From: a virus | Taxonomy: Duplodnaviria > Caudoviricetes | IMG/VR virus record: IMGVR_UViG_3300020123_000165 | Coordinates: 1-62,768 of that record | Length of the DNA stretch: 62,768 nt | Direction: 5' to 3' (one strand) | Shown: piece by piece, positions 11,029-59,438 of the stretch | Layout: every line of letters begins with the position of its first letter | How positions within the stretch are numbered: the first letter of the stretch is position 1 | Program-made: the position numbers and the translations under genes | The notes under the pieces: generated by a model | Database searches by the model: none | What the model saw: the letters and a program-made list of their open reading frames with translations, nothing else | Told to the model about the DNA's origin: nothing

Positions 11029-12057
11029 ATGGCTACCTCCGGAACCGTTGGCACTACGGTAATCAATACCTCCAAAATCGTGGAGAAAGCCCTGCGGCGA
11101 GTAGGATTGATGCCACAAGCTTTGACCCCGGAGATGGTAGCTACCGCCGAGGAAGACCTGTACTTGCTCCTTCTGAGCTTGTCTAGTCGAGGACTTAACC
11201 TCTGGTGCCTGGATCAAATCTTCATCCCTCTGGTGGCTAACACTGCCACTTACACCCTTCCGGTTGGCACTCAGAATCTGCTCAATGTGGTGTACTCCCC
11301 CGGCACTGTAGTGTCTTTAGGGGCCACGGTAAGCTTTGGGGCTACTTTGGTTGGGGATGACTATTTCCCGGGAGAGTATGTTAAAGTGGTTTTGACCACT
11401 GGACAGACACTCAGTCAAGTGGGTGTTCAATTTCCGGGATCCGAATGTACCTCATTCAAGGTCCAAGGATCGAATGATGGCATCAGCTGGACCACGCTTC
11501 GTGAGGTTGATGGAAACTATCAACCCACTCGGTACAACTGGTTTGAGGTATCTTCTGATGTTGCATATACTCAGTATCGGAAGGTGTTTCCTCGAACGAC
11601 GGGATCAGTAGCCAGCTCGAGTTCATTTGATATCATCAACGGCCTGAGGAGAGATTTACCGATCACTCCTCTGAACCACGATGACTACATGCAGCTTCCT
11701 GACAAGTTCAATAAGTCGCTTATCCCGACGTCATTTTACTTCGAGAAGCTGATCAATCCTCAGATTACTCTCTGGCCAGTCACGCCAGATACTCAAGGCT
11801 ATATGACTATCCTGAGAAGTCGCCAGGTCCAGGACATCGGAACTTTGACTCAGGAACTAGAGATTCCGGCTCGCTGGACCGAGTCTATCACCTGGCAACT
11901 GGCCGTGAGGCTATCCTTTGAATTCCCAGGAGTAGATCCGGCTCGACGAGCTGAGGTGATCCAGATGTCCCAGGGTATGACCGTAGAAGTCGAGAGCGAT
12001 GAAACTGATAACGCTCCTACCTACCTGTCTCCTAACATTCGGGCCTATACAGCATGA
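11029..12057 (+). CDS. Head-tail adaptor-like protein with inserted discoidin/F5-8-like domain
   Basis: MATSGT start, RGLNLW, VQGSNDGISWTTL, Y..LPDK, ITLWPV. Confidence 0.65.
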   Translation: MATSGTVGTTVINTSKIVEKALRRVGLMPQALTPEMVATAEEDLYLLLLSLSSRGLNLWCLDQIFIPLVANTATYTLPVGTQNLLNVVYSPGTVVSLGATVSFGATLVGDDYFPGEYVKVVLTTGQTLSQVGVQFPGSECTSFKVQGSNDGISWTTLREVDGNYQPTRYNWFEVSSDVAYTQYRKVFPRTTGSVASSSSFDIINGLRRDLPITPLNHDDYMQLPDKFNKSLIPTSFYFEKLINPQITLWPVTPDTQGYMTILRSRQVQDIGTLTQELEIPARWTESITWQLAVRLSFEFPGVDPARRAEVIQMSQGMTVEVESDETDNAPTYLSPNIRAYTA

Positions 12058-26966: not shown

Positions 26967-28262
26967 TTACAGGTTTGTTGAACCAGAACTTTCATTATAT
27001 GGAAGTTTGGAGTGCTTGTAAATGGCCATAATAGCTTCTGACAACTTTTTCTTCTCGACTACGGCATTATAAACCACTTCATCCATAGTGCCTTCGATGA
27101 GTAGATAATAGTATCGTACCCAGGGAGTATCTACCAAGACGATACGATCCTTGAACTGCTCCCATTTGAGGTAGGAATAGTTCATCGAGAAGATGATCAT
27201 ATGGTTGTGGTGGGCCAGGTTGATAGCTTCCCCGGCTGAGGGATTGAGCAGGGTCACCTGGCTACGATCTTTTGGGTCATACTGATGCTTACCACGAATC
27301 TGGACATGAGTAATACCCCGTTCTGTGAGTCCCTGATCAATAGCATCCATCTCAGCTTTGTAGTTAGCTACAACGCAGATTGATTGTCCTTTAAGCTCCC
27401 CGTCAATCAAGCTCCAAAGGTAGTCCAGCTTATCTTGGTGTACTGAGTGAGTTGTTCGTTCATCATCCTTAACAAACCCCCCACAGACTTGGTGTAACTT
27501 GAGTGCTTTCGTGAGGGCCATTGGGGCCGTAATCAGGTTCCCCTGGATTTCCGTCATCAGGGCTTTTTCTAATTCCATATATGGGCGCCAGAAGGCCTCT
27601 CCGGCCTTAATACGGCACTTCCTGGACTGTACCATAGTCTTCACAGTGGATACTTCGTCCCGAGTGATGCGGAAAGAAATGCCTTTGAGGATCTCTTTGA
27701 ATTGCTCCTGGTTCTTGTATCCCTCAATGGTGGGAAAAGGGTCTTCTCTCCCATTGATATATCGCTCTCCAATGATTAGGTACTTCTCCGAGAATTCTCC
27801 CCAGGTAGGGAAGAGGTCAGGGCGTATGAACTTGAGTTGAGAGTAATAATCTTCACACCCATTTCCTTGTGGGGTTCCCGTCAGGATTAGCCTTTTCTTG
27901 GCCTTTCTTCCTACTTTCCAACAAGCCTTTGTCTGTTGGCTCCCTCGCTCCTTAATACGATGTGACTCATCTATAATCACTAAAGCTCGGTTCCTGACTA
28001 GGCTCAGGTGTTTAATTCTAAAAGACTCGAAGCTAAATATCTCGAATTCTTCTAGTTTTAATCCCATCCTAGTAATTTCTTGAGACCATACAGGTATGGC
28101 CTTTTTGGGACAAATGATGAGATTATCATGACAATCCCATCTTTTTGAAAGCTCTAGGGCGGTTATAGTTTTTCCCGTCCGAGGTTGCATAAATAGTCCG
28201 TAGCCATCATGTGATAGTGCGGCCATTACGGCTTGTTCTTGATAATCTCTAAGTATAATCAT
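26967..28262 (-). CDS. SNF2-family helicase
   Basis: LRDYQ, PRTGKT, IIDESHRIK, LTGTP, helicase C-terminal motifs. Confidence 0.92.
   Translation of the reverse strand: MIILRDYQEQAVMAALSHDGYGLFMQPRTGKTITALELSKRWDCHDNLIICPKKAIPVWSQEITRMGLKLEEFEIFSFESFRIKHLSLVRNRALVIIDESHRIKERGSQQTKACWKVGRKAKKRLILTGTPQGNGCEDYYSQLKFIRPDLFPTWGEFSEKYLIIGERYINGREDPFPTIEGYKNQEQFKEILKGISFRITRDEVSTVKTMVQSRKCRIKAGEAFWRPYMELEKALMTEIQGNLITAPMALTKALKLHQVCGGFVKDDERTTHSVHQDKLDYLWSLIDGELKGQSICVVANYKAEMDAIDQGLTERGITHVQIRGKHQYDPKDRSQVTLLNPSAGEAINLAHHNHMIIFSMNYSYLKWEQFKDRIVLVDTPWVRYYYLLIEGTMDEVVYNAVVEKKKLSEAIMAIYKHSKLPYNESSGSTNL
26994..27022 (-). promoter_or_regulatory. Sigma70-like promoter
   Basis: TTTACA-N17-TATAAT on minus strand. 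Confidence 0.75.
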
Positions 28263-28702
28263 AGATGACTCCAGGAACTTCGAAGCTTTATCTTGCTTAC
28301 CATACTTTGAGTGATTCTATATTCTTTAGCTATAGTAGACTGAGTTCTAGTATCCCGCCTAATACTGATAACCTGATCCGGGGATAGCCGACTCATCCCA
28401 TTTCTAGAGCCTATAGTTTGACGTGATCTGCTTACCTTATCTTTCACATTGTCAATATCATTACCCAGCCTAAGATGCATAGGATTACAACACTTTCGAT
28501 TGTCACAAGAATGAAGTACATCCCATCCCAGGGGAAGCTCTCCTCGGGTTAATAAGTAGGCTACCCGATGAGCTCCCACTACTGACTTTTGGAAAGTGAC
28601 TCTTCCATAGCCGTTGGGAAAAGAACTCCGCGTCCACTCCCAACATTCGTCTAGTCCAGCAACTCTGACTTTACTCCAGAATAGGCTGCTACCCATTAGC
28701 AA
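28259..28702 (-). CDS. HNH homing endonuclease
   Basis: FWSKV..ECWEW..GYG..AHRVAY..HSCDNRKCCNP.HL. Confidence 0.9.
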   Translation of the reverse strand: MLMGSSLFWSKVRVAGLDECWEWTRSSFPNGYGRVTFQKSVVGAHRVAYLLTRGELPLGWDVLHSCDNRKCCNPMHLRLGNDIDNVKDKVSRSRQTIGSRNGMSRLSPDQVISIRRDTRTQSTIAKEYRITQSMVSKIKLRSSWSHL

Positions 28703-31323: not shown

Positions 31324-31755
31324 TTATACCAGGTTAGCTACTGATTTCCAGCTCTTCTTCCTTCGAATTCTACTAATCTGAGCTTTACTAATTTTATACT
31401 CTTCAGACATCACTTTAAGCTCCCTTGAGTCTAATAGAATAGCCAGAACTTTGTTCGGGGATAGCTTAGAAGCCTGCCGACCCTTAGCTTTCATATCATC
31501 CATATTATCTTGATCCGTACCACAGAACAGATGACAAGGATTACAACATTTGCGATTATCACAGGAATGACATACTTTCATCCCTGGCGGGATAGGGCCA
31601 CGGGTTAGCTCATAAGCTATCCTGTGCGAACGTTTAGCATGACCACTTACCCCAAACCACCCATACCCTTTCTCGGTTAATCCCGCTCGCCACTCCCAAC
31701 ATTCATCTAGTCCAACGACCCGGATTTTACTCCAGAATCGTTGAGCTAATTTCAT
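31324..31755 (-). CDS. HNH homing endonuclease
   Basis: FWSKI..ECWEW..GYG..SHRIAY..VCHSCDNRKCCNP.HL. Confidence 0.9.
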   Translation of the reverse strand: MKLAQRFWSKIRVVGLDECWEWRAGLTEKGYGWFGVSGHAKRSHRIAYELTRGPIPPGMKVCHSCDNRKCCNPCHLFCGTDQDNMDDMKAKGRQASKLSPNKVLAILLDSRELKVMSEEYKISKAQISRIRRKKSWKSVANLV

Positions 31756-38073: not shown

Positions 38074-38495
38074 GATTTCCTTTTCCTAATATTGCAAATG
38101 TGTCCGGGAGACACTTTAAATTCAGCTGATAGTTCTTTGCAAGTCTTCGTAGAATCCCTAATGCTCATCACTTCAGCCACTGTTAATTTTACTATATTAT
38201 GGTGAATCCCAGATAAAGATCTTCCTTTATTTACTTTATCTTTTTCGTTATCAGTTCTAGTTCCCAGTGACAGATGCTCGGGATTAACGCACAGTTTATT
38301 GTCGCAGCTATGCATTACTTCTAATCCCTCTGGAATGACTCCCTTATATAGCAAATAAGCTATACGATGAGCCCAACTTGTTCCTAGGTATTTCTTATAG
38401 GTTTGGTAGACTCCATAGCCATTCTTAGCCGTCGAGCCCTTCCATACCCAACAATCGGGTGACTTTTGGAATCTTAGTTCAAATCCATTTGAGGA
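38058..38495 (-). pseudogene. HNH endonuclease lacking an in-frame start (frameshifted or degenerate)
   Basis: Frame is open from the stop at 38496-98 and encodes DCWVW..GYG..AHRIAY upstream of the track's TTG; the coupled ATG at 38533 is in another frame. Confidence 0.6.
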
Positions 38496-38529
38496 TTACC
38501 ATTAAGAATCCTAGGAAACCCGAATTTCT

Positions 38530-43775: not shown

Positions 43776-44311
43776 GGTTTCCACTCCCCTTTCCTGATCT
43801 TGTCTGCGATGTCCATTAGATGACAGTAAGCCTCTTTGACAAAGCCTAGTGCAATCCTCTCCACCAGCTTCGCGTCATGCTCACGGAGGGTGGAATTATC
43901 GGATTTGGTTGCGAGGGCCGCATGCGCAAGATCAAGCACCGATTCCGTGTAGTGATCTTGGTGCATATGCGGGGTTTTAGTGATCTTCTGCAAAGCCTCC
44001 CGCAGCTTATCGTTCTCAGCCTGCGCTTGGGCAAGTTGCTGGCGGAGTCCCCTTTCGGACTCACAACAGTCGGCATAGTGAACCTCTGTTTCTTTGAGTG
44101 AGATATTCTCAGCCTCCAGTTCTCCAACCTTGGCAGCGTAGTCAGAGATGATTGTATTATCCAGAGCTACCTTGGCTTCTAGGTCGGCTCGGGCGAAGGT
44201 GGAGAAGGCTTCAAGTGCCTCAAACTCACCGGCAATATCACCTTGGGGGAAGCAGTAGATTTCTGATTCCTTTGCCCACTGCACTACCTGCTCTTTGGTC
44301 GGTATGGTCAT
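43772..44311 (-). CDS. Hypothetical coiled-coil protein
   Basis: ORF track; coupled. Confidence 0.6.
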   Translation of the reverse strand: MTIPTKEQVVQWAKESEIYCFPQGDIAGEFEALEAFSTFARADLEAKVALDNTIISDYAAKVGELEAENISLKETEVHYADCCESERGLRQQLAQAQAENDKLREALQKITKTPHMHQDHYTESVLDLAHAALATKSDNSTLREHDAKLVERIALGFVKEAYCHLMDIADKIRKGEWKP

Positions 44312-44571
44312 TTCATTCCCCCTTTCTTTAGTAATTCAGTATCCTCTTTGCGGGAATCAAGATCGAGCAGTTCGCTGTACCCATAGCATCGTTGCCCATC
44401 AGTGAAGCCTGCCGCGATAGGTTCCCTGAAAAGACGTGTCCAGTTGTACCCACCTGTCTTGATGTGGGATAACACCTCGGCAAACGCATCATGGCCGATT
44501 GATTTCGGGAAGATGAAAAGCTGCTCGCCGTCTTCCTCGCACGTAACGACTACATATTTCATTTCAACCAT
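44308..44571 (-). CDS. Hypothetical phage protein
   Basis: MKYVV..FIFP..H...AGF..CYG.S..L.SR..D. Confidence 0.7.
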   Translation of the reverse strand: MVEMKYVVVTCEEDGEQLFIFPKSIGHDAFAEVLSHIKTGGYNWTRLFREPIAAGFTDGQRCYGYSELLDLDSRKEDTELLKKGGMK

Positions 44572-45124
44572 TTACTTTCCCCTTAACGGTGGCTAGGGCG
44601 TCGCATATAGCCGTCCTAATTTTAAAATAGCGTTCTGTCTCAAGAGGTTGTCCTACGGTCGCGTATATCTGATTATTGACCGATTCCAACGCATCCACCA
44701 GCACCTTCACCTTGTCTTGCTCGGCGGAGAGTTGTTGCCTAAGACTTTGCTTACTATGTAAAGCCTCGTTGAGTGCTTGCTGTAAAGAAGTATTAGAAGC
44801 CTCAAGCTCGGCTACTCTGGCGCGGAGGGCTTCGATTTCAGTCGCAGACCTACCATAGGCATAGGCGTCATCGTCTCCACTGAGTTTCACTGGGAGAGGG
44901 TGGGTGAAAAGGTAGGTTCCTACAGGGGGTAAAGGAGCCAGCTGTTTGAGGGCTGTGAATTTAGCAAAACCATTGTCGGTGTTGACCACCTCGGCCACCG
45001 GCTCCTGCTTGCTCAGTTCTGCGACCAGGGCGTGGGCGAAGTCTTGCGTCAGCCCAGCAGGGAGGCCAATTCTGAATCTGCTTTCGCCGTTGACCAAACG
45101 CAGGGCGATTTCTTTAATGTTCAT
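44564..45124 (-). CDS. Hypothetical protein
   Basis: QEPVA..LPPVGT.LF motif plus coiled coil. Confidence 0.6.
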   Translation of the reverse strand: MNIKEIALRLVNGESRFRIGLPAGLTQDFAHALVAELSKQEPVAEVVNTDNGFAKFTALKQLAPLPPVGTYLFTHPLPVKLSGDDDAYAYGRSATEIEALRARVAELEASNTSLQQALNEALHSKQSLRQQLSAEQDKVKVLVDALESVNNQIYATVGQPLETERYFKIRTAICDALATVKGKVNG

Positions 45125-45414
45125 TCATATCTCCCGTAATTGCTGAACAATATACCTGTATGTTTTGAGTACCGAAGACGGTAGTAGAAGCGACCAACCC
45201 TGATAATGAACCCAAAACTGTAGCGATCCCATAAAGACCAGAAACTAATCCCTTGCGGCGGGATCATCCCTTCCTGCCTGATGATGTGAATCATCGCGTG
45301 CTCCTCAGCAATGTTTCCACTTGCCGCACATGTGGCAACGGTACGTATATTCTGTAGCATCACCCCCGCAATATGACCACTGGCAGGGGATTCCGGATGT
45401 GGTTTGTATGTCAT
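45121..45414 (-). CDS. Hypothetical protein
   Basis: AAGGAG RBS; ORF track. Confidence 0.55.
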   Translation of the reverse strand: MTYKPHPESPASGHIAGVMLQNIRTVATCAASGNIAEEHAMIHIIRQEGMIPPQGISFWSLWDRYSFGFIIRVGRFYYRLRYSKHTGILFSNYGRYE

Positions 45415-45426
45415 TTCATTCTCCTT

Positions 45427-45540
45427 ATCAGCTAACCCTGAAGCCCCGTCGTGATTCGAAAACTAATACCCGAAGGGTGGCACGACAACTACCGGCTAAT
45501 CAAGAGGGCACGTCCTCTGTCGACTCCAGGGCTAACTGAT
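45427..45540 (-). ncRNA. Putative structured RNA (19-bp closing stem, multibranch interior)
   Basis: AUCAGUUAGCCCUGGAGUC/GGCUUCAGGGUUAGCUGAU with 4 G-U pairs; inner stems AGAGG/CCUCU and GUCGUG/CACGAC; two UUCG loops. Confidence 0.7.
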
Positions 45541-45845
45541 CATAGCGCCGGTAAGGCGCGAAGTTCTTGGATCTTCTGGTCAATCTCATTGATCTTGAGT
45601 TGAGTCTCTGCCAGAAGCTTGGCTTTTTTGATTTCAAACATGTTGATAGTCTGGAGGGTAAAGTCATTGTCTTCGGCTTCGAAGACAATGTGAGCTTGTC
45701 CCACTCTGATCCAGCCATGCCCACTCATATCTTGTGAATAGAATGACATCTGCCCGATGATATCCTTGGGAGACATCTGCGGCCAAAGGGATGTGTTAGT
45801 GTATTCGCTGGTAATCCAAGCGGACAGGGTTGCTTTTACTCTCAT
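45540..45845 (-). CDS. Hypothetical protein
   Basis: ATG overlaps upstream stop; ORF track. Confidence 0.6.
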   Translation of the reverse strand: MRVKATLSAWITSEYTNTSLWPQMSPKDIIGQMSFYSQDMSGHGWIRVGQAHIVFEAEDNDFTLQTINMFEIKKAKLLAETQLKINEIDQKIQELRALPAL

Positions 45846-46288
45846 GATTTCTCCCACCAATAAGGTGCTGGACGCCCACGGTTCCACTGGGCAAAGGTTT
45901 TGGTATGGTAATACTTGCGATATGCTTCTACCGGATCAGTGCAGCGCATACTTTCTGGCATACACTGAACGAACTCGGAGACTCCTACGGGAAAGCGATT
46001 TCCCTCATTGGCCAGGGATGCGATGATCTTCTGGCACATATGGACCTTCTGGTAGCGGAAGGTGTATTCCTCGCATAGGGCCAGAGCATGCATAGCCAGC
46101 CAGTTATAATTGGTCCGGTTCTTTCTGGCCCAGAGGGTACAGGGGTGGTTCATATGGCTGATCCTGTATGGGCCGTCAGCCACTGCACTCATTATCTGAG
46201 TAGACTCCAAGCATTGTTTGACTATGTGTTTGTCACATAGCATTTGAGCTGCTAAAACTGGGTTTGTGTCTACTACGAAGATTTGCAT
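45842..46288 (-). CDS. Pyrimidine-dimer DNA glycosylase (endonuclease V-like)
   Basis: M.IF....P..AA...CDKH.VK..LE..Q, H.NHPC..W, EY..RY.K.H, DPV.AYR.YY. Confidence 0.85.
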   Translation of the reverse strand: MQIFVVDTNPVLAAQMLCDKHIVKQCLESTQIMSAVADGPYRISHMNHPCTLWARKNRTNYNWLAMHALALCEEYTFRYQKVHMCQKIIASLANEGNRFPVGVSEFVQCMPESMRCTDPVEAYRKYYHTKTFAQWNRGRPAPYWWEKS

Positions 46289-46290
46289 GA

Positions 46291-46854
46291 TTACCTCTTG
46301 TGTTTAGAGTAGAATTTAGCCATCAGAATAAGCTCATCAATCGTAGCATCTTTCTTCAGTATGTTAGCCCGACGACTTACTATTATTATATTCTCTTTTG
46401 TGTACCCTTTATCATTCTCTATTCGATCAATAGATGGAGCATTCATCCAAGTCGATTTATCCTCTCTATGCAAAGGTATACCAAATACCGGGCAGGTTTC
46501 GGGTATGATTATGTCAGAGAGTTGTATAGTGTGTTCCATGCCAAGTTTCTTGGCTCGTTGGCGAGAATTTCTCCATATTACATAAGCCGCTTTATGAGTC
46601 CAATTTCTAGAACGTCTAGCTTGTACTATATCACCTCGTCCACATTTCTTGCACTGAGACTTCTTTCCGGAACTAAGGTCTCCCCGTATATTGTAAGAAA
46701 AGGCCCCTTTAGGTTTAGCCTCTCCACATGAAATGCAAACTTGATTCTCACCCATGTTAGATTCAAGTCTTTTCTTTCCGTTGAATTGATTAGAGCAGGT
46801 ATTAGAACAGAATTTTCGTTTGGTGGATTTTCCACAATTGGGACAAATATTCAT
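46291..46854 (-). CDS. HNH endonuclease with Zn-finger N-terminus
   Basis: CPNCG..FCS..C; CPVFG; PSIDRI....GY...N......AN..K. Confidence 0.85.
   Translation of the reverse strand: MNICPNCGKSTKRKFCSNTCSNQFNGKKRLESNMGENQVCISCGEAKPKGAFSYNIRGDLSSGKKSQCKKCGRGDIVQARRSRNWTHKAAYVIWRNSRQRAKKLGMEHTIQLSDIIIPETCPVFGIPLHREDKSTWMNAPSIDRIENDKGYTKENIIIVSRRANILKKDATIDELILMAKFYSKHKR

Positions 46855-47203: not shown

Positions 47204-47214
<11 letters not shown>
46915..47214 (-). CDS. Hypothetical Zn-ribbon protein
   Basis: CPKC...CVKC. Confidence 0.6.
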
Positions 47215-47766
<552 letters not shown>

Positions 47767-47770
<4 letters not shown>

Positions 47771-48081: not shown

Positions 48082-48120
48082 TTGAGTACCTCTTTATTGA
48101 ATTGGGACAATTCATTATAT

Positions 48121-48163
48121 GAGAAATTGGGTCATTTCGGTGGCCCAATTTCTCTTTTCTTTT
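48121..48163 (+). terminator. Strong hairpin, T-tailed on the + strand
   Basis: GAGAAATTGGGTCA-loop-TGGCCCAATTTCTC then TTTTCTTTT. Confidence 0.65.
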
Positions 48164-48559: not shown

Positions 48560-50566
48560 TTAGAACTTGATGTTAATGATACGAGAGAAGCTGCCCTTGA
48601 CCCGGCAGACAAGTGAGTTGCGTTGCGTACTGCTAAAACCGAGGCCACTCAGTTGATCCCGGGATTCTTCTGTACGCATACGGGAGCCCACCATCTCCAT
48701 GACCTTACGATGCGATTCCAGTGACGTATTGAGGAACTCATTATAGAATCCCCGAGCCGTACCGTCATTCTGACAACCATCGATCATGAAGAAATAATGG
48801 CGATTGCCTACTCCCTGACCATCCCAGTGGTTTGGTGATAGCATGATAGCATTAACCCGCTGGAAGGTTCGGGTCTGGATACCCCACACTTCTTGGGTCT
48901 TAACCTCTTGGGATGAAGATAGTGACTTGATCATCTCAATACCTTTATCATGTGAGTACCTGAACTGGGCCACCAAGATCGTCTCTCCATCCCTGACCGC
49001 CTTTTCATAAGCAAAGCGATGAACGTCTCCCAAGAAATCCATTTCTACTTCAAACCCCACATTTGTAGACTCACGTTTTCGGTAGTTATGTACTATCAGT
49101 TGGTAGACACCTTCTTTCATTGCCCGCTTATTGCCGTAGAAGATATTCTCTACTGGTTCCCGAGTAGATCCTACTCCAGCATTCATGTCAACGTCCAGGC
49201 GACCACCACTGGGAGAGGTATTGTTACGATTTCCAAAATAAATCTCGTAACCCCCCGGCTCTTGCATATGAAAGTCAAGGTCATCAAAATTGAACCAAGC
49301 TAACCGACAGCATAGATCACCTGAGACGTTCCCACCCGCTTTCTTTACCCGTTCTTTGATACTGTCAGTCACGTCACCATTGTATGACCAGCTGAATCCG
49401 TTGTCCCACTTGAATAGCCGCTGGGCAGTAGGGTCGACTGGAGCAATCAAACTGACCAGGTTGCCGGTGTGACTGTTGTCCATCATCACTTCAATACTGT
49501 CAGCCTTGGGAAGAATGTCAGTGATGAACTTGTCAATACTGACTTCTTCTATCCGATCTAAGCGAGGCACGCTGTCTTTGGTACTGGAAGCCAGGTCGTC
49601 GAACACACTACCTTCCATCCGCTTTCGAGCTGAACGGTCGGCGAACAGTACGTTGTTGACGGAGATGTCAGGCAGCTTGGCGTACCGCCGTTCAAGTGAT
49701 GAGGTCAATCCCAAGTCTTCCACCGTTTCCTTGGCCTTGTCAATCATCGCCTTGGTCACGAGTGCTGTCGGGCGCTTGTAGTTCTGGGGGGCCACCATCG
49801 CTTCGAACCGTTTAACAGCGTCTTCCAATTCCATGCCTTCGGACAGTTCGGTGAGCAATGTGCCAATACTGGTGTTGCGGATACGAGTGATAGCCTGAGA
49901 AATGCTGGCACTGACCTTGGTCCACACCCAGATATCGTCGGTGTATTGGGCCTTTAGTTTCTTGAACTCTGAGACCGCGAACCGGTTTTCTTCCCCTTTA
50001 TACAGGCTATTCTGATCGATGAGTTCAAGGACGGTGTCCAACGCCTCGAAAGTGATCTCATTAAGACCACGCTTGAATACGTCGAAGGTGGATCGCTTTT
50101 CGCCGAGATATGCACCGGGATCTTTCTTGACATACTCTGCAGGGATGTTGATGAAGAAGTGGTTCCAGGTCTTGACACCGTTGATAGTGTCTTCGAAGTT
50201 CTTGTCCGTGCCGGCAGTACGTTCTTCATGCGTGAACACGTTGTCAATCGGGAAGGACTTAACGAAAAAAGCCATCTTATCAGCAACATCCTGATACTCA
50301 GGCTCACCACTGATAGTCGTGTCCCAGAGACTGACTACCTTGCCGTCAATGATAGCGACCACATTGCCGACCGCACGAATGAACTGTTTGCAGCACGAGC
50401 AGTCATGCTCAGTGCGTTCACGATACAGCGGATTGGATCCCTCAGGAAAGCTGTTGAGATAGGTATCCCACAGACCTTCCTTTGGAGCCTGTGTGCGGTA
50501 CAGCGGGTGTTGTTGCATAGTGGCGAATTGCCGAGCAACCGCCTCTTTAAAAGCTACGAAATTCAT
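48560..50566 (-). CDS. Large conserved phage protein (668 aa) with HDCxxC and YfaP/DUF2135-like region
   Basis: HDCSCCKQFIR; DDLDFH..P....IYF; GRLDVD.N...PVENI. Confidence 0.7.
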   Translation of the reverse strand: MNFVAFKEAVARQFATMQQHPLYRTQAPKEGLWDTYLNSFPEGSNPLYRERTEHDCSCCKQFIRAVGNVVAIIDGKVVSLWDTTISGEPEYQDVADKMAFFVKSFPIDNVFTHEERTAGTDKNFEDTINGVKTWNHFFINIPAEYVKKDPGAYLGEKRSTFDVFKRGLNEITFEALDTVLELIDQNSLYKGEENRFAVSEFKKLKAQYTDDIWVWTKVSASISQAITRIRNTSIGTLLTELSEGMELEDAVKRFEAMVAPQNYKRPTALVTKAMIDKAKETVEDLGLTSSLERRYAKLPDISVNNVLFADRSARKRMEGSVFDDLASSTKDSVPRLDRIEEVSIDKFITDILPKADSIEVMMDNSHTGNLVSLIAPVDPTAQRLFKWDNGFSWSYNGDVTDSIKERVKKAGGNVSGDLCCRLAWFNFDDLDFHMQEPGGYEIYFGNRNNTSPSGGRLDVDMNAGVGSTREPVENIFYGNKRAMKEGVYQLIVHNYRKRESTNVGFEVEMDFLGDVHRFAYEKAVRDGETILVAQFRYSHDKGIEMIKSLSSSQEVKTQEVWGIQTRTFQRVNAIMLSPNHWDGQGVGNRHYFFMIDGCQNDGTARGFYNEFLNTSLESHRKVMEMVGSRMRTEESRDQLSGLGFSSTQRNSLVCRVKGSFSRIINIKF

Positions 50567-50839: not shown

Positions 50840-50929
50840 TTACTTCTCCTTAAGGCTTAGGTTGTGGAACGTGTCCACGATGATCATGCCAGCTCATTTC
50901 TCGCTCCAGGTATGGGTTAGTGACAATTC

Positions 50930-50958
50930 ATTATATCCTAACCCAATCCCATGGTCAG
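50930..50958 (-). promoter_or_regulatory. Sigma70-like promoter
   Basis: CTGACC-N17-TATAATGAA; -10 flanked by TGGGTTAG/CTAACCCA inverted repeat. Confidence 0.65.
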
Positions 50959-57588: not shown

Positions 57589-57945
57589 ATGACGACACAT
57601 CCGCTTCATCCAAACAAAAGAGACAAAGGTCAAGTTGAGGTCCTCTCCGGCATGGGAGCCTCTGAAGACTTCATCGCGAATCACCTCTCTCTATCCATAG
57701 AAGAGCTTCACCTCCACTACCGCCAACAGCTACAGTCGGGCATCGAAGAGGCGAATCTCCAGGTCGCCAAGACCTTCCATGAGATGGCCACATCAGGCGA
57801 GCATCCCACCATGACCTTAGCTTGGCTCAAGATGCGCGCAGGTTGGTCCGACGCCAAGCAAGCCGAGGAAGAAGACACGACCGACTACCTGGCCGAAGCC
57901 AAAGAGAAGCTCCTCAAGCTACTCAACCGCGCTCACTCGGCATGA
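57589..57945 (+). CDS. terS: Terminase small subunit
   Basis: HTH, A..G......WLK.RAGW motif; directly before terL. Confidence 0.8.
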   Translation: MTTHPLHPNKRDKGQVEVLSGMGASEDFIANHLSLSIEELHLHYRQQLQSGIEEANLQVAKTFHEMATSGEHPTMTLAWLKMRAGWSDAKQAEEEDTTDYLAEAKEKLLKLLNRAHSA

Positions 57946-59438
57946 CCACACTCACCACACTCACCACACAAATAGTCACGCGTGAGGACATCGAGGCCCT
58001 CACTCTCCGAGAGGTCGTCGCTCTAACGCATGACTGGACCTTGTGGGCCAGACCTAATCAGCTACCACCTGACCTACCTCAGTCATCCAACTACTCAGAA
58101 GACCGAATCCTATGGGACTATTGGGTCGCTCTCGCCGGTCGAGGCTTTGGAAAGACGCGCCTGGGGGGCGAGCAAGTCCTGCGCTGGGTAGATCAGGGCT
58201 ACCGACGGATCGCGATCATCGCACCGACGACGGCTGATACGCGAGACGTGGTCACTGAAGGTGAGTCGGGCATCATGACTATTGCCCACCCGCGCAAGCG
58301 ACCAATCTATGAGCCCTCCAAGCGGCGCCTCACCTTCCCAAACGGGGCGATCGCCACCCTGTACTCCGCTGAAGAGCCGGAACGCTTACGGGGTCCACAG
58401 TTCGATGCGGCTTGGTTGGATGAGATCGCTGCTTGGCAGTATCCACAAGAGGTATGGGACATGCTGCACTTCGGCCTGCGCTTGGGCCGTCATCCGCAGG
58501 TGGTCGTCTCTACCACCCCGAAGCCGATTCCACTCATACGGCGACTCATTGACCAGGCGCGCAAGAACCCTAATAGTACAGTACTCACCACCGGATCCAC
58601 CTATGAGAACAAGGCCAACCTGGCGAAGACATTCTTCACTCAGGTATCGCAATATGAAGGCACTCGCCTGGGTAGGCAAGAGCTGCATGCGGAGCTCATT
58701 GACCCGAGAGAGGCAGGGATCATCAAGCAACCCTGGTTCAATCCATGGCCACACTCCCAAGCACTACCACGCTTCGAGCATATCCTGCAGAGCTACGACA
58801 CCGCGTTCACTGAGAAGACTCTGGATCGCAAGACCAAAGACCCTGACCCAAGCGCGCAGAGTACCTGGGGCGTGTTTGCGATCACTCAGACGCACAGAGA
58901 CATCGCCAAAGAGCACCAGCCGATACCGAAGCACGTCAAGTATGGCATCCTCCTACTCGACTCCTGGTCAGATCACTTGGGATTCCCTGAGCTAAGGCAG
59001 AAGGTCAAGAATGAATACTCCAATTCTTATTACGGTCCGGAAGGCGATGAGCGGCGCGCAGACACCGTACTGATTGAAGATAAAGGCTCCGGCATCTCCC
59101 TTCGTCAAGATCTGCAGCTCTCTGTACCCGTAAGAGCATACAACCCTGGCAAGGCTGATAAGGTAGAGCGTCTGCATGCGGTAAGCAACATCCCCTGCAT
59201 GGGCATGGTGTTCATTCCAGCCAGCAGCAAAGATCCAAGCAAGTTCGCTAAGTGGGCGGATCCCCTGGTCGACCAAGTATGCTCATTCCCCTTGGTTGAG
59301 CATGATGACTTGACAGACACCTTCAGCCAAGCGCTTCAGTACTTGAAAGATGCCGGCTGGCTCGTACCCGATGAGCAAGAAGAGGAAGACGAATATGCAG
59401 ATGATGTTCCGACAGCACGTAATCCATATGCTGTATAA
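57942..59438 (+). CDS. terL: Terminase large subunit
   Basis: AGRGFGKT, LRGPQF..AWLDE, TTP, SYDTAF, HDDLTD..SQAL; ATG 57942. Confidence 0.95.
   Translation: MTTLTTLTTQIVTREDIEALTLREVVALTHDWTLWARPNQLPPDLPQSSNYSEDRILWDYWVALAGRGFGKTRLGGEQVLRWVDQGYRRIAIIAPTTADTRDVVTEGESGIMTIAHPRKRPIYEPSKRRLTFPNGAIATLYSAEEPERLRGPQFDAAWLDEIAAWQYPQEVWDMLHFGLRLGRHPQVVVSTTPKPIPLIRRLIDQARKNPNSTVLTTGSTYENKANLAKTFFTQVSQYEGTRLGRQELHAELIDPREAGIIKQPWFNPWPHSQALPRFEHILQSYDTAFTEKTLDRKTKDPDPSAQSTWGVFAITQTHRDIAKEHQPIPKHVKYGILLLDSWSDHLGFPELRQKVKNEYSNSYYGPEGDERRADTVLIEDKGSGISLRQDLQLSVPVRAYNPGKADKVERLHAVSNIPCMGMVFIPASSKDPSKFAKWADPLVDQVCSFPLVEHDDLTDTFSQALQYLKDAGWLVPDEQEEEDEYADDVPTARNPYAV

What the first reader, a model, noticed from the sequence alone, without database searches (positions are those of the whole stretch)
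45427..45540. 114-nt strand-specific multibranch RNA among the small early genes
Seen on the minus strand: a 19-bp closing helix containing four G-U pairs, which would be A-C mismatches on the other strand, so selection appears to act on the RNA. It encloses hairpin AGAGG-ACGUGC-CCUCU, a linker UGAUUAGCCGGUAGUU, and stem GUCGUG/CACGAC holding two mini-hairpins with UUCG loops. It begins at the upstream stop codon and ends immediately before the AAGGAG SD. I could not place it in a known class. Inference: a processed sRNA (decoy, antitoxin or anti-CRISPR type), a ribozyme, or an RNase III-released element.
Basis: partly seen in the sequence, partly recalled or inferred. Interest (0 to 1): 0.75.

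Follow-up and report, generated by a model that had tools for sequence, protein, structure and literature searches.

The report
Lone palindromic insert in phage operon
A single 114-base stretch wedged between two small phage genes folds, on the transcribed strand only, into one unusually long 19-base-pair RNA stem; the stem is real, but the elaborate branched interior is no better than chance and nothing like it was found elsewhere, so it is most likely an inserted hairpin that host RNase III could cut, not a new RNA class.

Summary
The 19-bp closing helix with four G-U pairs is real, strand-specific and rare. Minus strand: -46.9 kcal/mol, z -3.70. Plus strand: -31.9, z -1.10. It is the best uninterrupted helix in this 62.8-kb phage, and only 1 of 60 genome shuffles matches it. 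It runs from the A of the upstream TGA to the base before the AAGGAG SD.

The 76-nt interior alone folds no better than shuffles (z +0.78), so the multibranch anatomy is unsupported, and one 'UUCG mini-hairpin' is mis-drawn.

No Rfam family, tRNA or second genomic copy was found. Sequence, pattern and covariance-model searches of the related viral records, and exact-pattern scans of the viral, metagenome and genome collections, found no homologue. Covariation therefore cannot be tested, and no RNA data exist.

The block is otherwise tightly packed. Removing 112 or 114 nt at short direct repeats would restore a junction typical of the block, which suggests an insertion.

Best reading (about 0.4): a single-copy palindrome-ended insert whose RNA stem acts in cis. 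It keeps the spacer folded, leaves the SD free, and is a plausible RNase III substrate, like T7 early processing signals or transcribed Correia elements. Rivals are an inert insert, a released sRNA, or translational bypass. Interest is modest.

The parts
45427..45540 (-). The element as defined by the closing helix (114 nt)
   Evidence: MFE -46.9, z -3.70 on the minus strand. Single copy in the genome. Persists in a 231-nt context fold.
45522..45540 (-). 5' arm of the 19-bp helix; its first base is the A of the upstream stop codon TGA
45427..45445 (-). 3' arm of the 19-bp helix; ends one base before the SD
45446..45521 (-). 76-nt interior (5-bp hairpin, 16-nt linker, 6-bp stem with 27-nt loop region); not more structured than shuffles
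   Evidence: z +0.78, 154 of 200 shuffles as good. The linker has no complementary target in the phage other than itself.
45540..45842 (-). Upstream gene (101-aa form, P0001; the longest ORF reaches 45887). Member of an unnamed family of phage proteins of about 105 aa.
   Evidence: 101-aa form; pLDDT 0.84, look-alike viral clusters; 87 remote relatives, aligned end to end.
45421..45426 (-). Shine-Dalgarno AAGGAG of the downstream gene; unpaired in the context fold
45121..45414 (-). Downstream 97-aa orphan gene; ends in a 4-nt overlap with the next gene
45411..45431 (-). Six codons in the upstream gene's frame (from CTG at 45431-45429) ending in a TGA (45413-45411) that overlaps the downstream ATG; a possible relic of the pre-insertion 3' end

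Best explanation
It is a single-copy, palindrome-ended insert of about 112-114 nt. It sits at the very 3' end of a small phage gene, inside a long and otherwise gap-free polycistronic unit on the minus strand. In the mRNA its two ends pair into a 19-bp stem, and that stem is the only feature with statistical support. I infer that the stem acts in cis. It folds the 114-nt untranslated spacer away, so that the next gene's ribosome-binding site stays free and little unstructured RNA is exposed. It also offers host RNase III a near-ideal fully paired duplex. Cutting both strands would separate the upstream cistrons from the downstream ones and release a by-product of roughly 90 nt. This resembles the RNase III processing signals of the T7 early mRNA and transcribed Correia repeats.

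Shown: the helix, its rarity, its strand specificity, its exact placement from stop codon to SD, and the free SD. Inferred: the origin by insertion, cleavage by RNase III, and any effect on expression.
For: Helix and strand asymmetry. Rarity: best helix in the genome; 1 of 60 genome shuffles. Placement in one of 8 gaps of >=30 nt among 45 junctions. Context fold keeps the helix and leaves the SD and AUG essentially unpaired. The signal lies in the stem only. Size fits RNase III substrates, and fully paired target sites lack the loops or bulges that restrict cleavage to one strand: passages of PMC3867540, which also mention five RNase III processing signals in the T7 early polycistronic precursor. 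Transcribed Correia inverted repeats form RNase III-bound or RNase III-cleaved hairpins: passages of PMC2649163. Insertion-like flanks: the upstream gene's frame continues after the element for six codons to a TGA that overlaps the next ATG. That junction type makes up 10 of 45 junctions in the block and 6 of the 10 nearest, and a neighbouring junction ends in the same nine bases. Short direct repeats sit at the borders (GCT 114 nt apart, TGAT 112 nt apart). The upstream gene is a real family member aligned to its relatives end to end.
Against: There is no RNA evidence. No RNA run holds the stretch, and the DNA contigs laid on it carry the element unchanged, so neither cleavage nor a discrete transcript is shown. 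No homologue was found, so there is no covariation. The other gaps of the operon do not hold a comparable stem: the 38.4-kb gap has no dominant helix and no strand bias, and the 48.1-kb hairpin is short. The phage therefore shows no series of processing sites as T7 does. The host is unknown, so its RNase III rules cannot be applied. The helix is 19 bp, under the idealised 22 bp. The strand bias of the wobbles is only a 1-in-16 event, or 1-in-8 if the UUAG self-pair counts once. The border repeats overlap the palindrome and could be chance.
Confidence: 0.4

Rival explanations
1. It is an inert selfish or accidental insertion: a MITE-like or fold-back palindromic insert near the 3' end of the upstream gene that brought its own stop codon. 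It is tolerated because it folds on itself, and it has no dedicated function at the RNA level.
For: Insertion-like flanks and a restorable canonical junction. TIR-like 19-bp ends, a size of 114 bp and no coding capacity fit the MITE definition in passages of PMC11602168. The interior is at chance level. Phage genomes do carry occasional MITEs (passages).
Against: It is a single copy in the genome. Exact-pattern scans found no other copy: the two-arm pattern gave 0 hits in viral contigs, 0 in metagenome contigs and 1 in genome contigs. That one hit (L012) shares only the 13 nt the pattern forced, and its own sister copy lacks them. All four arm mismatches are G-U on the transcribed strand, which a purely DNA-level element does not predict. 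No transposase was seen in the proteins scanned.
Confidence: 0.28
2. It is a trans-acting small RNA (decoy, antitoxin or anti-defence RNA) excised from the mRNA by cuts in the stem. The roughly 90-nt product is the functional part.
For: A long stem enclosing an interior is how RNase III releases stable RNAs from precursors (rRNA precursors are mentioned in passages of PMC3867540). The location among small early genes fits.
Against: The interior has no structure beyond chance. The linker has no complementary target in the phage other than itself. There is no match to any of 4227 Rfam families even at E<=10. No partner protein was identified: the flanking proteins have no Pfam or PHROG family, and no Ro/Rsr, RtcB, RNase III or reverse transcriptase was found among the 37 ORF translations scanned with Pfam. 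There are no tandem repeats as in type III antitoxins (one search lists none there).
Confidence: 0.1
3. It is a tRNA-like or degenerate tRNA element. It has a D-loop-like AGCCGGUAG and a T-loop-like UUCGAAUC in the right order, under a long 'acceptor' stem.
For: These motifs can be seen. A look-alike in L010 (about 20-bp closing helix plus three hairpins) is called tRNA-Asn by ARAGORN and shares two 8-mers with the element.
Against: ARAGORN finds nothing at default, 90% or, on the element's own strand, 80% thresholds (the only call at 80% lies on the opposite strand with a 116-nt intron). The call at 70% is noise: 152 of 300 shuffles and 155 of 293 genome tiles also get one. The Rfam tRNA model has no hit at E<=10. 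The shared words are non-collinear and are reached by 26-39 of 2000 shuffles before correcting for the candidates inspected.
Confidence: 0.03
4. It is a DNA-level signal (a replication or single-strand initiation site, a recombination site or an inverton), or simply a chance palindrome.
For: The single-stranded DNA fold is also better than shuffles (z -2.56, 2 of 200). 1 of 60 genome shuffles does give such a helix.
Against: Arms 76 bp apart are a poor cruciform or operator. No recombinase or invertase was found in the proteins scanned. The strand-specific wobbles and the exact stop-to-SD placement are not expected of a DNA site. The chance expectation is further reduced by the location in a rare gap.
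Confidence: 0.08

Closest known systems
RNase III processing signals of the phage T7 early polycistronic mRNA
   Same: An intercistronic position in a phage early polycistronic transcript, and a double-helical element about two helical turns long between a stop codon and the next ribosome-binding site (PMC3867540 passages).
   Different: T7 has a series of five such signals in its early precursor (PMC3867540 passage); here there is one. From memory, and not from any call, the T7 signals are simple hairpins with an internal loop that restricts cutting to one strand. Here the stem is fully paired and encloses 76 nt. There is no sequence similarity, and cleavage is untested.
Correia repeat-enclosed elements (Neisseria) and similar transcribed palindromic repeats such as ERIC
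   Same: About 100-150 bp, with terminal inverted repeats. They insert next to or into genes and, when transcribed, form a hairpin that RNase III binds or cleaves (PMC2649163 passages). My statement that ERIC elements behave similarly is recalled, not read.
   Different: Correia elements are present in about 120-250 copies per genome, with a TA target site and a conserved core. This element is single-copy, has no relative anywhere I searched, and sits in a phage.
Prokaryotic and viral MITEs as surveyed by Nadal-Molero et al. 2024 (PMC11602168)
   Same: The size (the median prokaryotic MITE is 104 bp), TIRs of >=10-15 bp, a non-coding interior, and occasional presence in viral contigs.
   Different: No second copy and no cellular counterpart were found. 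The target-site duplication is ambiguous. The paper's supplementary MITE lists, which include IMG/VR contigs, could not be opened and might hold this contig.
Phage T4 gene 60 coding gap (translational bypass)
   Same: From memory only: an untranslated insert inside a reading frame, matched codons at its two borders, a stop codon right after the take-off codon, and a stem starting at the take-off site. Here CTA followed by TGA, and CTG, lie 114 nt apart in frame.
   Different: The gap would be more than twice as long as T4's 50 nt. Only six codons would be regained. There is no evidence of a nascent-peptide signal, and nothing has been tested.

Membership tests
Any Rfam family (ribozymes, sRNAs, riboswitches, tRNA, Y-RNA-like) | Covariance-model score at or above the family's gathering threshold | tested here: not met
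   0 matches in the whole window; only E=4.8-8.1 noise at 8.5-15 bits against gathering scores of 40-49.
tRNA / tRNA-like | Cloverleaf recognised by ARAGORN or the Rfam tRNA model above background | tested here: not met
   nothing at 100% or 90% thresholds, and at 80% only an opposite-strand call with a 116-nt intron; the 70% call is matched by 152 of 300 shuffles.
Bacterial RNase III substrate | Regular double helix of about two turns (idealised 22 bp; many cellular substrates about 20 bp or less) | tested here: met
   19 uninterrupted pairs; criteria from PMC3867540 passages.
Bacterial RNase III substrate | Absence of antideterminant base pairs in the proximal box; actual cleavage by the host enzyme | not testable with these tools
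   The host is unknown, the cleavage register is unknown, and no RNA data exist.
Phage RNase III processing system (T7-like) | A series of such signals between cistrons of the same transcript | tested here: not met
   The other gaps lack a comparable stem, and the covariance model R1 finds only the element itself in the window.
MITE | Terminal inverted repeats of at least 10-15 bp, size 50-800 bp, no transposase inside | tested here: met
   19-bp arms (15 of 19 complementary as DNA), 114 bp, no ORF of note; definition from PMC11602168.
MITE | Target-site duplication of 2-10 bp | tested here: inconclusive
   GCT (114 nt apart) and TGAT (112 nt apart) flank the element but overlap the palindrome itself.
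MITE | Several related copies in the same or the host genome | tested here: not met
   Single copy. The two-arm pattern gave 0 hits in viral and metagenome contigs and 1 coincidental hit in genome contigs. Interior and arm words gave only chance hits.
Type III toxin-antitoxin RNA | Tandem repeats of about 34-36 nt upstream of an endoribonuclease toxin gene (definition recalled) | tested here: not met
   No direct repeat is listed at the locus. The downstream 97-aa protein has no family or look-alike.
Translational bypass element (T4 gene 60 type) | Matched take-off and landing codons, and a stop codon after the take-off codon (definition recalled) | tested here: inconclusive
   CTA then TGA at 45545-45540 and CTG at 45431-45429, in frame. 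The two Leu codons are synonymous, not identical, and the protein product cannot be tested here.

The most novel reading that the evidence does not exclude
The insert is a programmed translational bypass element. Ribosomes finishing the upstream gene would take off at the Leu codon CTA, with TGA in the A site at the foot of the stem. They would skip the 114-nt folded insert and land on the Leu codon CTG exactly 38 codons downstream. They would then read six more codons to a TGA that overlaps the next gene's ATG, which would restore the termination-reinitiation coupling that is the rule in this operon. It would be a far longer hop than the 50 nt of T4 gene 60, and it would be carried by a hairpin-forming mobile insert, as in yeast mitochondrial 'byps' (both precedents are recalled, not read).
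Probability: 0.04. Interest if true: 0.85.

Novelty: new member of a known kind. Interest (0 to 1): 0.3.

Why it matters
If the stem is an RNase III site or a stabiliser, it would be one more case of phages using host dsRNA processing to uncouple cistrons, in a lineage far from T7 (the nearest isolates share about 40% DNA polymerase identity). It would also show how a palindromic insert can be tolerated inside a tightly coupled operon. That is useful but not surprising. The value of this check is mostly corrective. The attractive multibranch anatomy carries no signal, and the element is an orphan, so it should not be listed as a candidate new structured-RNA class without RNA data. Only the low-probability bypass reading would be of wide interest.

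Tried and rejected
1. Known RNA classes: Rfam at gathering threshold on the whole window and at E<=10 on 801 nt and 151 nt gave noise only.
2. tRNA-like reading: rejected.
3. Sequence homologues: blastn against phages with 801 nt and 161 nt gave none or chance hits at E of 2-6. blastn and nhmmer against 9 related loci gave none.
4. Synteny: 9 viral loci were found through the 668-aa protein. None encodes any of the 11 small neighbouring proteins.
5. Covariance model R1, built from the element alone, finds only the element itself in the window plus 10 loci and matches 0 of 5 whole related records.
6. Exact-pattern scans: arm 17-mer, 1 chance hit, L011. Inner-stem 19-mer, 0. Two-arm degenerate pattern, 0 viral, 0 metagenome, 1 genome (L012), judged coincidental. 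Interior 20-mer, 1 hit (L017) sharing only 22 nt inside an unrelated ORF.
7. Flanking proteins: the word-based search found only the window's own proteins. Full HMMER then found 87 remote relatives of the upstream protein, but I could not fetch their loci. The alignments were too loose. The 3-sequence alignment gave 0 confirmed of 274 pattern matches. P0019 gave 0 of 7. tblastn of three members against phages gave 0. The profile against 9 related records gave 0.
8. Sequencing runs: no RNA holder is listed. Four DNA runs hold short pieces that are identical or near-identical (0-6 differences); the one piece over the element (45395-45586) has 0 differences, and no empty-site joint appears at the element.
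9. A second element of the same design in the operon: not found.
10. SD sequestration or a riboswitch-like switch: the context fold leaves the SD free.
11. Trans target of the linker: only the element's own complement.
12. L010 look-alike: it is a tRNA-Asn with an extended acceptor stem, and the shared words are not significant after correction.
13. Atlas look-alikes gave no RNA-related function for either neighbour.

Full report
WHAT THE WINDOW IS. The window is a complete viral record of 62,768 bp with direct terminal repeats. The plus strand carries structural and packaging genes, including a terminase at 57822-59438. A long minus-strand block (about 26.3-52.4 kb) carries replication and nucleotide-metabolism genes: family A DNA polymerase, ATP-dependent ligase, dCMP deaminase, a thymidylate-synthase-like protein, an SNF2 helicase, a PD-(D/E)XK nuclease, and three HNH-type endonucleases. 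It also carries many small genes of unknown function. The nearest isolated phages share about 40% identity in DNA polymerase, so the lineage is poorly sampled.

THE OBSERVATION. On the minus strand, 45540-45522 pairs with 45445-45427 as 19 uninterrupted pairs, four of them G-U. The minus strand folds to -46.9 kcal/mol (z -3.70, 0 of 200 shuffles as good). The plus strand folds to -31.9 (z -1.10, 26 of 200), with the helix broken at exactly the four wobble positions. The element starts at the A of the upstream TGA. It ends one base before AAGGAG, which is followed by 6 nt and the ATG of the next gene. A scan of both strands for uninterrupted helices within 250 nt shows this is the best in the genome; the only other 19-bp run has 7 wobbles. 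Only 1 of 60 whole-genome dinucleotide shuffles gives a helix of >=19 bp with >=15 Watson-Crick pairs. By a crude longest-ORF gene call, the block has 45 junctions: 25 overlap, 12 have gaps under 30 nt and 8 have gaps of 30 nt or more. The 125-nt gap holding the element is one of those 8. The helix is therefore real, rare, strand-specific and precisely placed.

WHAT IS NOT THERE. The 76-nt interior folded alone gives -16.7 kcal/mol and z +0.78, and 154 of 200 shuffles fold at least as well. The 5-bp hairpin and the 6-bp stem exist as drawn, but together they are what random sequence of this composition gives. One 'UUCG mini-hairpin' is off by one base, and the other has three weak pairs. RNAfold pairs the two UUCG segments with each other instead. 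The finding is therefore a long stem around an unremarkable spacer, not a designed multibranch RNA. All four wobbles being G-U on the sense strand is a 1-in-16 event for independent transitions. Two of the four come from UUAG pairing with UUAG, so it is nearer 1 in 8.

KNOWN CLASSES. Rfam gives nothing at gathering thresholds for the whole window, and only noise at E<=10 around the element. ARAGORN finds no tRNA in the window. I followed the D-loop-like and T-loop-like words in the interior. ARAGORN at lowered thresholds gives a sense-strand call only at 70%, where 152 of 300 shuffles and 155 of 293 genome tiles also get one; the only call at 80% lies on the opposite strand with a 116-nt intron. 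No Ro/Rsr, RtcB, RNase III, reverse transcriptase, transposase or recombinase appeared among the 37 ORF translations I scanned with Pfam. I did not scan every ORF.

SEARCH FOR RELATIVES. The element occurs once in the genome. blastn against 50,697 phage records gave nothing beyond chance. Nine related viral loci were obtained through the conserved 668-aa protein 3 kb upstream (34-59% identity). They contain none of the 11 small neighbouring proteins and nothing like the element by blastn or nhmmer or by a covariance model built from it. Zero of 5 whole related records matched that model. Exact-pattern scans of the three public collections gave one 17-mer hit in an unrelated stretch with no palindrome, no hit for the inner stem, and no two-arm hit in viral or metagenome contigs. 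A 22-nt coincidence fell inside an unrelated ORF. There was one two-arm hit in a genome contig, L012. L012 is a perfect 28-bp palindrome with an AT-rich interior, and it shares only the 13 nt per arm that the pattern demanded. It has a diverged sister copy in its own genome that lacks that core. I therefore treat the match as coincidence, although its SD-start flank resembles the window's. A helix scan of the related loci turned up one look-alike (L010:1745-1850, about 20-bp closing helix and three hairpins, z -6 to -7). It lies in an array of 26 tRNA genes and is itself called tRNA-Asn. Its two shared 8-mers with the element are non-collinear and are reached by 26-39 of 2000 shuffles before correcting for the candidates I inspected. 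No homologue is in hand, so covariation cannot be assessed.

EXPERIMENTAL DATA. No RNA run holds the stretch. Five DNA runs hold 5-8% of its sampled words. Laying four of them shows short contigs that are identical or near-identical to the phage (0-6 differences per piece), from soil, rhizosphere and drinking-water samples. One 192-nt piece covers 45395-45586 with no difference, and no joint skips the element. There are thus no variants to use, no empty site, and no information on expression.

THE NEIGHBOURS. The downstream 97-aa protein is an orphan with a poor predicted model. The upstream protein looked like an orphan by the word-based search. However, it has a confident predicted fold (pLDDT 0.84) with look-alike unnamed viral clusters, and full HMMER finds 87 remote relatives (26-43% identity, 92-152 aa) aligned essentially end to end. 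It is therefore a real gene that ends about where its family ends. That retrieval remains the single most useful step left.

INSERTION-LIKE FLANKS. In the upstream gene's frame, the element spans 38 codons with three stops. The sequence after it then reads six codons from CTG (45431-45429) to a TGA (45413-45411) that overlaps the downstream ATG. Four-base overlaps of this kind make up 10 of the 45 junctions and 6 of the 10 nearest ones. The junction at 44308-44311 ends in the same nine bases, with its upstream protein also ending in Met-Lys. GCT occurs at 45546-45544 and again at 45432-45430, 114 nt apart. TGAT occurs at 45542-45539 and again at 45430-45427, 112 nt apart. Removing either interval would leave a junction type that is normal for this block: either the 4-base overlap, or stop, SD, spacer and start. 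By my own rough estimate, not a computed one, a matching frame with an A after the ATG arises by chance about 1 time in 15, and the repeats overlap the palindrome. This is good circumstantial evidence for an insertion, not proof.

MECHANISM. The context fold of 231 nt keeps the stem and leaves the SD and AUG essentially unpaired. The element therefore does not sequester the ribosome-binding site. What the RNA offers is a 19-bp regular duplex at the foot of a junction. According to the passages I read in PMC3867540, the idealised E. coli RNase III substrate is 22 bp and many cellular substrates are about 20 bp or less. Loops or bulges at the target site limit cleavage to one strand and can leave a stabilising 3' hairpin, and RNase III acts on five signals in the T7 early polycistronic precursor. 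According to passages of PMC2649163, the inverted repeats of transcribed Correia elements form hairpins that RNase III binds or cleaves, with effects on neighbouring genes. I therefore commit, at about 0.4, to a cis-acting stem. It packs away an inserted spacer, which would otherwise be about 125 nt of untranslated and possibly Rho-accessible RNA (that part is inference). It is probably cut by host RNase III on both strands, separating the upstream and downstream cistrons and releasing a by-product of roughly 90 nt. Only the structure and its placement are shown; everything enzymatic is inferred.

EVIDENCE AGAINST. The phage has no series of such sites. The 38.4-kb gap has no dominant helix and equal z on both strands, and the 48.1-kb hairpin is short. 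The host is unknown. The main rival, at about 0.28, is that the insert is simply tolerated and has no function. A released trans-acting RNA (about 0.1) is weakened by the chance-level interior and by the lack of any target or partner. DNA-level roles or pure chance get about 0.08, and tRNA-like about 0.03.

MOST NOVEL READING NOT EXCLUDED. CTA followed by TGA at the 5' border, and CTG at the 3' border, are synonymous Leu codons exactly 114 nt apart in frame, and the regained tail ends in the operon's usual overlap with the next start. That is the layout of a translational bypass element as I recall it for T4 gene 60. An insertion with a 3-bp duplication explains the same facts, so I give bypass about 0.04.

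VERDICT. The element is a new, orphan example of a known kind of thing: a palindrome-ended insert that forms an intercistronic dsRNA stem. It is not a new structured-RNA class on present evidence. Interest is 0.3.

Noticed in passing
window 48106-48154 and 50922-50936: A 15-bp hairpin (48121-48154; the 100-nt stretch holding it folds with z -4.05) is directly followed on the minus strand by the motif ATATAATGAATTGTC, which recurs exactly at 50922-50936. This looks like a stem-loop plus promoter-like cassette present twice upstream of the small-gene block.
   Followed up: partly
window 47259-47454: A repeat with 9/12-nt periodicity (GCA/GCAT units) lies inside the Imm5-like ORF 47204-47770 and encodes a long Ala/Tyr/Asp low-complexity tract.
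   Followed up: no
window 28259-28702 and 31324-31755: Two paralogous HNH_3 endonuclease genes share an 88%-identical 49-nt segment 3056 nt apart, and a third HNH-type endonuclease lies at 46291-46854. The genome appears repeatedly invaded by homing endonucleases.
   Followed up: no
window 38355-38529: This 175-nt intergenic gap folds better than shuffles on both strands (z -3.07 and -2.83) but has no dominant structure. Its function is unknown.
   Followed up: partly
window 11545-11590 (+): A 19-bp helix with 7 G-U pairs and a 46-nt span lies inside ORF 11029-12057.
   Followed up: no
L010 1-6000, especially 1745-1850: A 360-kb phage record with direct terminal repeats carries 26 tRNA genes in 6 kb. 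The flanks of one tRNA-Asn(GTT) extend its acceptor stem to about 20 bp (z -6.1). ARAGORN calls it, but the Rfam tRNA model does not at E<=1.
   Followed up: partly
L006 6720-6995: Several perfect 20-bp inverted repeats lie in a 1.4-kb ORF-free, AT-rich stretch of an 88.6-kb viral contig. It could be an origin or a repeat cluster.
   Followed up: no
L012 4567-4704 and G010:C47:22497-22762: A palindromic repeat with perfect 28-bp arms sits in the 5' leader of a lipoprotein gene in a bacterial MAG, with a diverged second copy elsewhere in that genome. It is probably a small MITE family and is unrelated to the window element.
   Followed up: partly
window 45540-45842 (P0001): The upstream protein belongs to an unnamed family of phage proteins of about 105 aa (87 remote relatives) with conserved GW, G-x-A and IQEL motifs. 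The word-based search had missed them all.
   Followed up: partly
window 44300-46700: Short identical or near-identical contigs (0-6 differences per piece) of this phage occur in DNA runs labelled soil, rhizosphere and drinking water, from three studies.
   Followed up: partly
window 48560-50566: A 668-aa protein with no Pfam family is conserved at 34-59% identity in nine viral contigs, including records of 150 kb and 360 kb.
   Followed up: no
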